From assembly GCF_003334305.1 (NCBI RefSeq), contig NZ_QOWS01000004.1: a DNA stretch of 64,000 nt, one strand, 5' to 3'. This stretch comes from Escherichia coli. GTDB lineage: Bacteria; Pseudomonadota; Gammaproteobacteria; Enterobacterales; Enterobacteriaceae. Every line of letters starts with the position of its first letter. Position 1 is the first letter of the stretch. The position numbers were made by a program. This document shows, piece after piece, positions 38,101-41,100 of this stretch.

Positions 38101-41100
38101 ATTTGCTACAGAAAAACTGGTATGCGATTGGTGAAATGCCATTAAAAATAATTGTCGGCCCTGAATGTTATGCAATTGACCAATGATTAATTCACTTTTA
38201 TCGTCCCACGAAACAATATGCTGCATATGTCCATGAGTAAAATTACTCTCAAATGTTAATGGTCTGAAACGGATAGGTTTCCCAATAATATTATTTTGTA
38301 CAACACCAAGTGTTTTTAAGGCAGTCTGATTAACAAACTGAACCCGACTTTCATCATCAACAACTAATACGCCCTGATCCATATTATCGATCATGGTCGC
38401 GAATATTTTACTGATGTTATCTCCTGGCCCCTGATCCTCCAGAAGTTTCGAAACAAAAATGGTGGATATATGGCGAACATAATCAGAAAATTCGCGTAAA
38501 TTATCACTGATATGCTCTTGTTGCTCGTGGGTAACGGCAATCAAACTTATCACCCCAACACAACGATCCTGTAAAATGACAGGCGTACCCAGAAATGCTT
38601 TTTCGCGGCAATTTTCTTTACTATCGCAACCTTCGCAAAGGGGATCGAAGCGAGACTGTGTCACAACTTTTTCAGTTTTCGTTTCCAGGACGTGGCGGAG
38701 CAGGCGTGAGTTGCCGCTCAACTGGCGACCAAGAAACTTCCCATACGCGCCCGTTCCGGCGACGCGACACAAGTTTTCATCAACGATCTCAACCTCAAGC
38801 TGCAAAACGCTGGCAAGCATTCTGGCAAAACGCTGAATTGTCGGTTGAATTTGCATCAATACTGACTGCGTAGTAGCAAGCTCCATAGCTTTACCTTCCA
38901 GACTTACTTAAAAGTCGATCATTGAAGACGTTGATGGTTCACAGATCATGATGATATTAACTCAGGCGAAATTGGCTTTGATAAAAACATAAGATTTTTA
39001 TCATTTTCTAATGAAATTATGGAAGAGATATCACATTTCTATATCAATATGAGAATTACGGCGGTGAGTTTATCAAACTGAAGAGAGATAGCCTGTCCCT
39101 TTATCTTATTTCTGATACTTAGCAGCAAATAAATAACGCGATAAAAAAAGCCAAACGTTTTCGTATTTTACAAACAACCGGAAGCTGGCATCAATTTGTG
39201 ATCAACCCCACACATTATCCGTCAAATTAGTCTTTTGCAGCCCCGTGGATAATTCTGGCACACTTATTGTTAGTCCCAGGTATAGCTGTGAAAACACCAA
39301 TCACTTTGGCAAGTCACAGTGAAATAAACCACTTTGCCTGTCATTCCACTACCGGGACTTTATGATGAAAACTGTTAATGAGCTGATTAAGGATATCAAT
39401 TCGCTGACCTCTCACCTTCACGAGAAAGATTTTTTGTTAACGTGGGAACAGACGCCAGATGAACTGAAACAAGTACTGGACGTTGCCGCAGCATTAAAAG
39501 CACTGCGTGCTGAAAACATCTCAACCAAAGTCTTTAATAGTGGATTAGGTATTTCCGTATTCCGCGACAACTCCACCCGTACCCGCTTCTCTTATGCTTC
39601 CGCGCTTAACCTGCTCGGCCTTGCACAACAAGATCTCGACGAAGGCAAATCACAAATCGCTCACGGCGAAACCGTGCGTGAAACCGCCAATATGATCTCC
39701 TTCTGCGCCGACGCTATTGGTATTCGCGACGATATGTATCTGGGCGCAGGCAACGCCTATATGCGTGAAGTTGGCGCTGCACTTGATGACGGTTACAAGC
39801 AGGGTGTACTGCCACAGCGTCCGGCTTTAGTGAACCTGCAATGCGATATTGACCACCCGACTCAGTCAATGGCTGACCTCGCGTGGTTACGTGAACACTT
39901 TGGTTCACTGGAAAACCTGAAAGGTAAAAAAATCGCCATGACCTGGGCCTACTCTCCAAGCTATGGCAAACCGCTCTCTGTACCACAAGGCATCATCGGT
40001 CTGATGACTCGCTTCGGTATGGATGTCACCCTGGCCCATCCGGAAGGCTACGACCTGATCCCGGATGTGGTTGAAGTGGCGAAAAACAATGCTAAAGCAT
40101 CTGGCGGTAGCTTCCGTCAGGTCACCAGCATGGAAGAAGCGTTCAAAGATGCAGACATCGTTTATCCGAAGTCATGGGCACCTTACAAAGTGATGGAACA
40201 GCGTACCGAATTGCTGCGCGCTAACGATCACGAAGGCTTAAAAGCACTGGAAAAACAGTGTCTGGCACAGAACGCGCAACACAAAGACTGGCATTGTACT
40301 GAAGAGATGATGGAACTGACCCGTGATGGCGAAGCCCTGTACATGCACTGCCTGCCAGCTGATATCAGCGGCGTATCCTGTAAAGAAGGTGAAGTGACTG
40401 AAGGCGTATTCGAAAAATACCGTATCGCAACCTACAAAGAAGCCAGCTGGAAGCCTTATATCATCGCCGCGATGATCCTGTCCCGTAAATACGCCAAACC
40501 AGGTGCACTGCTCGAGCAACTGCTGAAAGAAGCGCAAGAACGCGTGAAATAACCCCTCGGGCCGATCAACTGGTCGGCCCTCTATTTCCAGAGGCCAAAA
40601 GGATAGGATATGTCCGTTTTCTCATTGAAGATTGATATCGCCGATAACAAATTTTTCAACGGCGAAACATCACCGCTCTTTTCGCAAAGCCAGGCCAAAC
40701 TGGCGCGCCAGTTCCACCAGAAAATAGCTGGTTATCGCCCAACACCGCTTTGTGCGCTGGACGATCTCGCAAACCTTTTTGGTGTGAAGAAAATTCTTGT
40801 CAAAGACGAATCAAAACGATTCGGTCTGAACGCCTTCAAAATGCTCGGCGGTGCGTACGCCATCGCTCAATTATTGTGTGAAAAATATCATCTTGATATC
40901 GAAACGCTGTCATTTGAGCACCTGAAAAATGCCATCGGCGAAAAAATGACTTTCGCGACCACCACCGACGGCAACCACGGGCGCGGTGTGGCGTGGGCAG
41001 CGCAGCAACTCGGACAGAATGCGGTGATTTACATGCCGAAAGGTTCTGCTCAGGAACGCGTTGACGCCATTCTGAACCTCGGTGCCGAGTGCATCGTCAC

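What the first reader, a model, noticed from the sequence alone, without database searches (positions are those of the whole stretch)
38887..39361. Long divergent ygeV–ygeW control region with a near-consensus sigma-54-like element
The 475-bp AT-rich spacer is unusually long for this genome. It contains TGGCAC-N5-TTGTT about 90 bp upstream of ygeW: a perfect -24 element but TTGT rather than TTGC at -12. It could be a weakened or variant sigma-54 promoter, with room for enhancer and IHF sites.
Basis: seen in the sequence. Interest (0 to 1): 0.4.

Follow-up and report, generated by a model that had tools for sequence, protein, structure and literature searches.

The report
Known sigma-54 promoter of ygeW
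The flagged motif is a real sigma-54 promoter in front of the E. coli ygeW uric-acid-breakdown operon; it is conserved across many bacteria but has been published since 2015, so it is not a discovery.

Summary
The ygeV-ygeW spacer is 475 bp (36.8% GC). CTGGCACACTTATTGTT lies at 39255-39271 (+), 91 bp before the ygeW ATG, and is the best sigma-54 match in the 64-kb window.

It is already known. This 17-mer is site OS30 in the sigma-54 ChIP-seq of Bonocora 2015, and RpoN holoenzyme binds this spacer in gSELEX (Shimada 2021). ygeWXY belongs to the YgeV iModulon (Lamoureux 2023).

What I add:
- **-12 base.** The element sits at the same place in 41 proteobacterial ygeW loci. The -12 base is T, A or G in 40 of them and C in one. 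TTGT is therefore a stable variant, as in pspA and pspG, not decay.
- **Candidate enhancer.** A conserved composite centred on the palindrome TTATCA-N3-TGATAA lies about 130-240 bp upstream. A matrix trained only on non-E. coli orthologues also finds it upstream of the ygfK, ygfT and, weakly, xdhA sigma-54 sites. It is probably the YgeV operator.
- **CRP, not IHF.** A CRP box sits 59 bp before the element in E. coli and Citrobacter, and 58 bp in Aeromonas. No IHF consensus is present.

Likely mechanism: YgeV bound at the enhancer loops to sigma-54 polymerase, with CRP placed to bend the DNA in between.

The parts
39255..39271 (+). sigma-54 -24/-12 element CTGGCACACTTATTGTT (GG at 39257-39258; G-13/T-12 at 39269-39270)
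   Evidence: Identical to ChIP-seq site OS30 of PMC4591121. Conserved in 41 loci. Unchanged in the divergent E. coli strains sampled.
39282..39282 (+). Predicted transcription start, 12 nt after the -12 base, giving an 80-nt leader
   Evidence: Inferred from sigma-54 promoter geometry. It agrees with 'distance 80' in Table 1 of PMC4591121. Not mapped experimentally.
39017..39080 (.). Composite candidate enhancer (UAS): ATG..ATCAC(39030-39034)..palindrome ATATCAATATGAGAA (39041-39055)..TTATCAAACTG (39070-39080)
   Evidence: Strongest conserved block of the spacer apart from the promoter. The architecture is conserved in gamma- and beta-proteobacteria. A matrix trained on orthologues also finds it at ygfK, ygfT and weakly xdhA.
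38979..39003 (.). Second inverted pair TGATAA-N13-TTATCA near ygeV; possible extra activator site or autoregulatory site
   Evidence: Read from the sequence. Moderately conserved in Enterobacterales. Function inferred only.
39194..39215 (.). CRP-type box; core TGTGA-N6-CCACA at 39197-39212, centred about -77.5 from the predicted start
   Evidence: Conserved core in alignments A1 and A2. It sits 59 bp before TGGCAC in E. coli and Citrobacter and 58 bp in Aeromonas. A 'native Crp-binding site' in this spacer is mentioned in PMC12507026.
39149..39164 (.). AGCCAAACGTTTTCGT, a PurR-operator-like palindrome between enhancer and CRP box
   Evidence: CAAACGTTT occurs once in the 64-kb window. Conserved only in Escherichia, Citrobacter, K. 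indica and Trabulsiella. The PurR resemblance is from memory and was not tested.
39282..39361 (+). ygeW leader: 5' hairpin 39285-39291/39314-39320, conserved GCCTGTCATTC (39336-39346), Shine-Dalgarno GGGA (39354-39357)
   Evidence: The fold is no better than shuffles (z = -0.31). No Rfam family matched. No consensus structure was predicted.
37108..38886 (-). ygeV (isrR): sigma-54 enhancer-binding protein with Cys-rich N-terminal domain, PAS, AAA+ (GAFTGA 347-352) and HTH_8
   Evidence: Pfam scan, RefSeq annotation, alignment.
39362..40552 (+). ygeW (knotted carbamoyltransferase), first gene of ygeW-dpaL-ygeY-hyuA-arcC(yqeA)
   Evidence: Function in reductive urate degradation from PMC12507026.
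48709..48723 (.). Perfect palindrome TTATCATAATGATAA, 176 bp upstream of the ygfK sigma-54 element (48891-48907)
   Evidence: It is the top hit of the orthologue-trained matrix: 22.79 bits, above the maximum of 50 shuffles (20.4).
33202..33216 (.). Weak palindrome copy TTATCACATTGATTT, followed by TTGATACGTATCAC, 126 bp upstream of the xdhA sigma-54 element (33334-33350)
   Evidence: 12.7 bits, not above chance on its own.

Best explanation
The element is the core sigma-54 promoter of the ygeW-dpaL(ygeX)-ygeY-hyuA-arcC(yqeA) operon, which encodes the lower half of the anaerobic, reductive uric-acid degradation pathway.

**Proposed steps.**
1. E-sigma54 binds -24 TGGCAC / -12 TTGT as a closed complex. 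This step is shown in the literature.
2. The divergently encoded AAA+ activator YgeV binds a composite enhancer about 205-235 bp upstream, centred on the dyad TTATCA-N3-TGATAA with flanking TCAC and TATCA half-sites. This step is inferred.
3. YgeV oligomerises and reaches the polymerase by DNA looping.
4. Its GAFTGA loop and ATP hydrolysis open the promoter, with transcription starting near 39282.

**Role of CRP.** A CRP box at fixed spacing, about -77.5, lies between enhancer and promoter. It probably supplies the DNA bend, and catabolite control, that IHF supplies at other sigma-54 promoters. This is inferred and its sign is unknown.

**Role of the -12 base.** The non-C base at -12 is a conserved property of this promoter. 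From published work on -12 mutants, it is expected to loosen the repressive fork-junction contact: lower closed-complex occupancy and easier or leakier opening. It is not a sign of decay.

**Regulon.** The same dyad lies upstream of the ygfK, ygfT/uacT and, weakly, xdhA sigma-54 sites, so one activator would coordinate the whole urate cluster.
For: **Core element.**
- Unique and best-scoring in the window.
- Identical to sigma-54 ChIP-seq site OS30, assigned to ygeW.
- An RpoN-holoenzyme gSELEX peak lies in the ygeV/ygeW spacer at 53-55%.
- ygeWXY sits in the YgeV iModulon with xdhABC, ygfK and ygfT, and ygfT expression falls in a ygeV mutant.

**Conservation.**
- One element per 9-kb locus, 78-230 bp before the ygeW ATG, in 41 loci. 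These include Escherichia, Citrobacter, Klebsiella, Hafnia, Edwardsiella, Morganella, Serratia, Erwinia, Aeromonas, Vibrio, Photobacterium, Shewanella, Endozoicomonas and a Rhodocyclaceae MAG.
- Within E. coli, 17 substitutions in the most divergent spacer all avoid the element, the enhancer blocks and the CRP core.

**Activator.**
- YgeV has Sigma54_activat, AAA_lid, HTH_8 and PAS domains and a GAFTGA motif.

**Enhancer.**
- The palindrome (at most 1 mismatch) occurs in 27 non-E. coli ygeW loci, once per locus in 25 of them. In 26 it lies 134-239 bp upstream of the -24 element.
- The matrix trained without E. coli ranks ygfK upstream first and ygeW second in 64 kb.
- A prospective test succeeded: its top hit in a separately fetched 12-kb locus falls in the 435-bp ygfT-uacT spacer, 173 bp upstream of the ygfT sigma-54 site.
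- Enhancer-to-promoter distances show about 10-bp periodicity.
- The palindrome and promoter persist in Aeromonas and Rhodocyclaceae, where ygeV is not the neighbour. The site therefore serves ygeW and not just ygeV autoregulation.

**The -12 base.**
- GT at -13/-12 is also found in pspA and pspG.
- C at -12 restrains basal transcription (PMC4551910).

**Precedent.**
- The same gene set is under a sigma-54 activator, DioR, in Clostridiales.
Against: - No transcription start, rpoN dependence or ygeV dependence of ygeW itself was found in the papers I could read.
- In vivo sigma-54 occupancy is low (FAT 3, against 11 for xdhA and 26 for ygfK).
- YgeV binding to the palindrome is untested, and the xdhA copy is weak (12.7 bits, within chance).
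- E. coli's own ygeW and ygfT copies have 2 mismatches to the dyad.
- The periodicity test uses phylogenetically related loci, and the period was scanned, so the p-values are optimistic.
- The direction of the CRP effect is unknown. CRP could instead serve a sigma-70 promoter; a chance-level minus-strand candidate abuts it.
Confidence: 0.8

Rival explanations
1. The site binds E-sigma54 but is non-productive or merely poised. ygeW is really transcribed by sigma-70 polymerase with CRP as the activator.
For: - Low ChIP occupancy (FAT 3).
- Bonocora et al. stress that binding sites are not necessarily promoters.
- A conserved CRP box lies 59 bp upstream of the element.
- Engineers replaced 'the native Crp-binding site' to raise expression of the operon.
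Against: - No conserved -35/-10 pair lies downstream of the CRP box. The sigma-70 scan finds nothing above chance on the plus strand upstream of the leader.
- The -24/-12 element is the most conserved stretch of the spacer across distant genera and keeps fixed spacing to the CRP box.
- A conserved enhancer lies at helically phased distances.
- The operon is co-regulated with other sigma-54 operons of the cluster.
Confidence: 0.08
2. TTGT is a decaying or weakened promoter in E. coli, a recent loss of the consensus C on the way to silencing a little-used operon.
For: - C at -12 is reported in 96% of compiled sigma-54 promoters and in 42 of 50 E. coli intergenic sites.
- Occupancy is low.
- The operon is almost silent in laboratory conditions.
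Against: - T at -12 is shared by all 20 Enterobacterales-type loci. Another 20 loci carry A or G, and only Shewanella has C. The non-C state is therefore old and maintained.
- pspA and pspG are strong, fully activator-dependent promoters with TTGT.
- All sampled E. coli keep the element intact, while neighbouring bases vary.
Confidence: 0.07
3. The TTATCA-N3-TGATAA dyad is the operator of a regulator other than YgeV, for example a repressor or a global factor. YgeV would bind elsewhere in the spacer.
For: - Binding was not tested.
- Aeromonas and the Rhodocyclaceae MAG keep the dyad without an adjacent ygeV.
- AT-rich dyads are common operator types.
Against: - The dyad accompanies all four sigma-54 sites of the YgeV iModulon cluster, at 126-208 bp.
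- It is unique per ygeW locus in 25 of the 27 loci that carry it.
- Its distance to the promoter is phased.
- It is a 15-bp dyad, the type recognised by Fis-type HTH_8 domains of enhancer-binding proteins. This last point is general knowledge, not tested here.
- Its half-site order is the reverse of a Fur box, judged by eye.
Confidence: 0.2

Closest known systems
E. coli pspA and pspG sigma-54 promoters (PspF-dependent)
   Same: They have a -24 TGGCA(C/T) with a -12 TTGT instead of TTGC (TTGGCACGCAAATTGTA, TTGGCATGATTCTTGTA). They are genuine, activator-dependent promoters with upstream enhancer sites.
   Different: The activator differs: PspF has no sensory domain and is controlled by PspA. 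From memory, the psp promoters use IHF; here there is a CRP box and no IHF consensus. The regulon differs (envelope stress versus urate catabolism).
xdhA, ygfK and ygfT sigma-54 sites of the same cluster (Bonocora 2015 OS29, OS31, OS32)
   Same: Same gene cluster and same iModulon. The same upstream dyad is present. The intergenic regions are long and AT-rich.
   Different: Those three carry the consensus GC at -12 but have poorer -24 elements (TGGCGT, TGGTGC, TATGCC). ygeW has a perfect -24 and a non-C at -12.
prpR-prpBCDE divergent sigma-54 system of E. coli and Salmonella (from memory: Palacios & Escalante-Semerena 2000; Lee et al. 2005)
   Same: The activator gene is divergent from a catabolic operon with a sigma-54 promoter. 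cAMP-CRP acts in the shared spacer.
   Different: prpBCDE also uses IHF. The PrpR sensor binds 2-methylcitrate. The operator sequences are unrelated. This comparison is recalled, not tested here.
DioR sigma-54 regulon of Clostridiales (PMC6615313)
   Same: A sigma-54 activator controls dpaL, ygeW-ygfK-ssnA-ygeY, yqeB/yqeC and xdhC, the same uricolytic gene set.
   Different: It is in a different phylum. Its promoter consensus is TTGGCAT-N5-TTGCT with C at -12. The DioR operator is described as distinct, and I could not read it because it is shown only in a figure. Homology between DioR and YgeV was not tested.

Membership tests
sigma-54 (RpoN) -24/-12 promoter | GG at -24 and G at -13 exactly 10 bp apart, with an overall matrix match in the range of validated promoters | tested here: met
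   CTGGCACACTTATTGTT scores 15.84 bits with a leave-one-out matrix. It ranks 25th of 50 validated sites and is the best in the 64-kb window.
sigma-54 (RpoN) -24/-12 promoter | C at -12. This is a consensus base, not obligatory: 96% of compiled promoters and 42 of 50 E. coli intergenic sites have it. | tested here: not met
   T at 39270. The same deviation occurs in pspA, pspG and OA06. Among orthologous ygeW promoters, 40 of 41 lack C. This does not exclude membership, because validated members share the deviation.
sigma-54 (RpoN) -24/-12 promoter | Occupied by sigma-54 holoenzyme | not testable with these tools
   Reported in the literature: ChIP-seq OS30, FAT 3 (PMC4591121), and a gSELEX peak at 53-55% (PMC8743547).
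sigma-54 (RpoN) -24/-12 promoter | Transcript start about 12 nt downstream that depends on rpoN and on an AAA+ activator | not testable with these tools
   No start-site or mutant data for ygeW were found. The only indirect evidence is iModulon co-regulation and the ygfT dependence on ygeV.
sigma-54 (RpoN) -24/-12 promoter | A cognate enhancer-binding protein with GAFTGA, and an enhancer 80-250 bp upstream | tested here: met
   YgeV has Sigma54_activat (E = 8e-70), HTH_8 and GAFTGA at 347-352. A conserved dyad lies 134-239 bp upstream in 26 loci and also accompanies the other cluster promoters. Binding itself was not tested.
IHF-assisted sigma-54 promoter | IHF consensus WATCAANNNNTTR between enhancer and promoter | tested here: not met
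   No exact match on either strand in 38887-39361.
CRP (cAMP receptor protein) site | TGTGA-N6-TCACA dyad | tested here: met
   TGTGA-TCAACC-CCACA at 39197-39212, with one mismatch. The core is conserved in Enterobacterales, Aeromonas, Serratia, Morganella and Erwinia. Spacing to the promoter is 58-59 bp in the three loci measured. A Crp site in this spacer is cited in PMC12507026. Binding was not tested here.
PurR operator | 16-bp dyad around CAAACGTTTG (recalled from memory) | not tested
   AGCCAAACGTTTTCGT at 39149-39164. I tested only its uniqueness in the window and its limited conservation.

The most novel reading that the evidence does not exclude
Two details may be new; I did not find them in the papers I could read.

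1. The dyad WTATCA-N3-TGAKAA, with flanking TCAC and TATCA half-sites, may be the YgeV (IsrR) operator. If so, it defines a urate regulon (ygeW, ygfK, ygfT/uacT, xdhA) conserved from Enterobacterales to Aeromonas, Vibrionaceae and a beta-proteobacterium. CRP rather than IHF would be the phased architectural partner.

2. The ygeW promoter may be a natural, evolutionarily maintained 'no C at -12' sigma-54 promoter (T, A or G in 40 of 41 loci). That would make it an in vivo test case for the fork-junction model of basal repression.
Probability: 0.55. Interest if true: 0.4.

Novelty: already known. Interest (0 to 1): 0.25.

Why it matters
The ygeW operon and its neighbours carry the recently solved anaerobic uric-acid degradation pathway of gut bacteria, which is relevant to gout and to engineered probiotics (PMC12507026). 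How the cluster is switched on is still described as poorly understood.

Confirming the sigma-54 promoter adds nothing new. A defined candidate YgeV operator, a phased CRP site and a conserved non-consensus -12 base do give concrete, testable handles for the regulation. They may also bear on the puzzling reports that YgeV/IsrR affects virulence genes.

Tried and rejected
- **Rfam.** A scan of 38850-39420 at E up to 10 returned only chance snoRNA-type hits far below gathering scores. There is no known riboswitch or sRNA in the leader.
- **Leader fold.** The hairpin is no more stable than shuffles (z = -0.31). RNAalifold on 17 orthologous leaders predicted no consensus structure. I dropped the idea of a conserved regulatory RNA, although each genus seems to have its own 5' hairpin by eye.
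- **IHF consensus.** No match in the spacer.
- **Sigma-70 scan.** Two hits against 1.9 expected, so it is uninformative.
- **Second candidate element.** CTGGCATCAATTTGTG at 39185 has its TTG one base out of register for GG-N10-GC and scores under 10 bits in the matrix scan. Rejected.
- **Fur box.** I considered that the dyad might be a Fur box. The half-site order is reversed (by eye only).
- **Literature.** A search for 'uacR' returned only clinical papers on urinary albumin ratio. Iwadate & Kato 2019 is not held in the library, so the ygeV-ygfT result is cited second-hand.
- **Python access to loci.** All cross-species statistics rest on the DNA search over loci and on the alignments.
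Full report
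**1. What is in the sequence**

The window is E. coli. The spacer is 100% identical to strain E2865 and is present in 5181 of 5426 complete genomes at 95-100% identity.

ygeV (592 aa) lies on the minus strand at 37108-38886, and the ygeW ORF on the plus strand starts at 39362. The spacer 38887-39361 is therefore 475 bp, with 36.8% GC against 45.9% for the window.

TGGCACACTTATTGTT is at 39256-39271. It is the only match to TGGCAC-N5-TTGTT in 64 kb, where 0.04 matches are expected. It ends 91 bp before the ATG.

The spacer is long but not singular. It is the third-longest gap in the neighbouring 40 kb. The two other spacers in that stretch that carry sigma-54 promoters are 414 and 321 bp.

**2. 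Is it more than chance, and how good a sigma-54 site is it?**

I built a position weight matrix from the 50 intergenic sigma-54 ChIP-seq sites in Table 1 of Bonocora et al. 2015 (PMC4591121), leaving the ygeW site out.

- The 17-mer CTGGCACACTTATTGTT scores 15.84 bits and ranks 25th of the 50 validated sites.
- It is the best hit in the whole window, ahead of xdhA (33334-33350, 15.36) and ygfK (48891-48907, 13.45). Shuffled windows give 0.2 hits at that score.
- GT at -13/-12 is not exotic. It occurs in 4 of the 50 sites, including the textbook pspA and pspG promoters.

**3. It is already known**

- The identical 17-mer is site OS30 of the sigma-54 ChIP-seq map. It is assigned to ygeW, lies 80 nt from the gene, has a low occupancy score of FAT 3, and carried no EcoCyc flag in 2015.
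- Genomic SELEX with reconstituted RpoN holoenzyme gives a peak in the ygeV/ygeW spacer at 53-55% intensity (PMC8743547).
- Lamoureux et al. [quoted passage not shown] They place these operons, with ygfK and ygfT, in a 'YgeV iModulon', and note that ygfT expression drops in a ygeV mutant.
- YgeV has also been renamed IsrR (PMC9426417).
- The operon's function is now known. YgeW, YgeX, YgeY, HyuA and YqeA carry out the lower part of a reductive, anaerobic uric-acid pathway (PMC12507026). That paper also mentions a 'native Crp-binding site' in this spacer.
- In Clostridiales the same gene set was reconstructed as the regulon of a sigma-54 activator, DioR (PMC6615313).

**4.

A scan of one genome per species with YgeW returned 80 loci.

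A -24/-12 element lies 78-230 bp before the ygeW ATG in 41 loci. No competing match lies near it; the few other matches in these loci are far from the ATG or on the other strand. The taxa include Escherichia, Citrobacter, Klebsiella, Kluyvera, Enterobacter, Kosakonia, Buttiauxella, Cedecea, Hafnia, Edwardsiella, Morganella, Serratia, Erwinia, Aeromonas, Vibrio, Photobacterium, Shewanella, Endozoicomonas and a Rhodocyclaceae MAG.

In a 19-species alignment the block TGGCA(C/T)nnTTATTGTTA is the most conserved stretch of the spacer.

The -12 base is distributed as follows:

| -12 base | Loci | Taxa |
|---|---|---|
| T | 20 | Enterobacteriaceae, Hafniaceae, Morganella, one Serratia |
| A or G | 20 | A in Aeromonas, Erwinia, two Serratia, Rhodocyclaceae; G in the Photobacterium and Vibrio examined, and Endozoicomonas |
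| C | 1 | Shewanella |

C at -12 is reported in 96% of compiled sigma-54 promoters and is said to keep basal transcription in check (PMC4551910). The non-consensus base is therefore an old, maintained property of this promoter, not recent decay. Because the loci are related, a cautious reading is that C is not required here. The stronger reading, that C is avoided, remains possible.

Within E. coli, the most divergent spacer I sampled (96.4% identity) has 17 substitutions. None falls in the element, the enhancer blocks or the CRP core. Two further variants keep the 17-mer intact.

**5. The rest of the control region**

(a) *Candidate enhancer.* The second most conserved block is at 39017-39080:

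ATG..ATCAC..TATATCAATATGAGAAT..TTTATCAAACTG

Its centre is a dyad whose consensus in other genera is TTATCA-N3-TGATAA.

- With at most one mismatch, the dyad occurs in 27 non-E. coli ygeW loci, once per 9-kb locus in 25 of them. In 26 it lies 134-239 bp upstream of the -24 element, and at 208-212 bp in most Enterobacterales.
- The distances show roughly 10-bp periodicity (Rayleigh p about 0.004-0.02 on unique distances). This is suggestive only.
- A matrix trained solely on non-E. coli orthologues ranks a perfect copy (TTATCATAATGATAA, 48709-48723) first in the 64-kb window. That copy lies 176 bp upstream of the ygfK sigma-54 element and scores 22.8 bits, above the maximum of 50 shuffles. The ygeW copy ranks second at 17.7 bits. 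The copy upstream of xdhA is weak at 12.7 bits.
- As a prospective test I fetched the ygfT-uacT region of the same strain, which lies outside the window. The top hit in 12 kb (AATATCAATATGAGAAA, 17.55 bits) falls inside the 435-bp ygfT-uacT spacer, 173 bp upstream of the published ygfT sigma-54 site.

The dyad thus accompanies all four sigma-54 sites of the cluster. I infer that it is the YgeV operator. Binding has not been tested.

(b) *Activator.* YgeV has a PAS domain, a Sigma54_activat AAA+ domain (E = 8e-70), an AAA lid and an HTH_8 domain, and no receiver domain. GAFTGA is at residues 347-352.

Divergent YgeV homologues (54-59% identity) flank ygeW in Photobacterium and Shewanella. In Aeromonas and the Rhodocyclaceae MAG the upstream neighbour is unrelated, yet the dyad and promoter are retained. 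The dyad therefore belongs to the ygeW promoter and not just to ygeV autoregulation.

(c) *CRP instead of IHF.* No IHF consensus is present in the spacer. A CRP-type box, TGTGA-N6-CCACA at 39197-39212, is conserved. It sits 59 bp before TGGCAC in E. coli and Citrobacter and 58 bp in Aeromonas, about -77.5 from the predicted start. Fixed spacing to the sigma-54 element, even where ygeV is absent, argues that CRP acts on this promoter. I propose that it supplies the bend and catabolite input. The sign of its effect is unknown.

(d) *Leader.* The 80-nt leader has a 5' hairpin and a conserved GCCnGTCATTC motif before the Shine-Dalgarno sequence. There is no Rfam match, no thermodynamic signal and no alignable consensus structure.

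**6. Mechanism proposed**

Shown in the literature: E-sigma54 binds the element.

Inferred:
- YgeV dimers occupy the composite enhancer and assemble into an oligomer.
- They contact the closed complex through a loop, helped by a CRP-induced bend.
- They open the promoter by ATP hydrolysis, with transcription starting near 39282.

The perfect -24 element, paired with a non-C base at -12, would give a promoter with weaker fork-junction repression. That is consistent with the low in vivo occupancy (FAT 3).

**7. Verdict**

The reading is wrong on 'weakened' and on IHF, and the element has been published since 2015.

The added details are modestly interesting leads that I did not find in the literature available to me: the regulon-wide dyad, the phased CRP box, and the conserved absence of C at -12.

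Noticed in passing
window 39149-39164: AGCCAAACGTTTTCGT resembles a PurR operator (resemblance recalled from memory). It lies between the candidate enhancer and the CRP box. CAAACGTTT occurs only here in 64 kb. It is conserved only in Escherichia, Citrobacter, K. indica and Trabulsiella. It could let purine levels block looping.
   Followed up: partly
window 37108-38886 (YgeV residues 84-109): The N-terminal sensory region of YgeV carries four cysteines: C84-x2-C87-x5-C93-x15-C109. All four are conserved in the Photobacterium and Shewanella homologues. This could be a metal or Fe-S (oxygen/redox) sensing motif, which would fit an anaerobic pathway. YgeV has no receiver domain, so the term 'orphan response regulator' used in the literature is a misnomer.
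   Followed up: no
L085 5608-5624 (ygfT-uacT spacer, just outside the window): CTGGCACTCCACGAGCA is a GG-N10-GC element with a poor -15/-14 (5.4 bits). It lies 69 bp before uacT on the opposite side of the same dyad, 117 bp from it. It may be a divergent second sigma-54 promoter that shares one enhancer with ygfT.
   Followed up: partly
window 39165-39194 (minus strand): A sigma-70-like pair, TTGATG-18-TAAAAT, abuts the CRP box and points toward ygeV. It could be a CRP-dependent ygeV promoter with a leader of about 270 nt that contains the enhancer dyads, which would allow autoregulation. The scan result is at chance level.
   Followed up: no
window 39285-39346: Each genus has a different 5' hairpin right after the predicted start (CTGTGA...TCACAG in E. 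coli). A conserved GCCnGTCATTC motif lies upstream of the Shine-Dalgarno sequence. No known RNA family matched and no consensus fold was found.
   Followed up: partly
L001 14521-16817 (about window 33400-35700): In strain E2865, whose spacer is identical to the window, RefSeq marks xdhA as a frameshifted pseudogene. I did not check whether the window carries the same frameshift.
   Followed up: no
L001 1-13272 (about window 18900-32150): Upstream of actS-xdhA lies an island next to tRNA-Gly. It carries an integrase, IS66-family genes, a Rha-family regulator and degraded type III secretion genes (ETT2-like; sctT, escS/escR, a frameshifted yscQ). This explains the low GC of the window.
   Followed up: no
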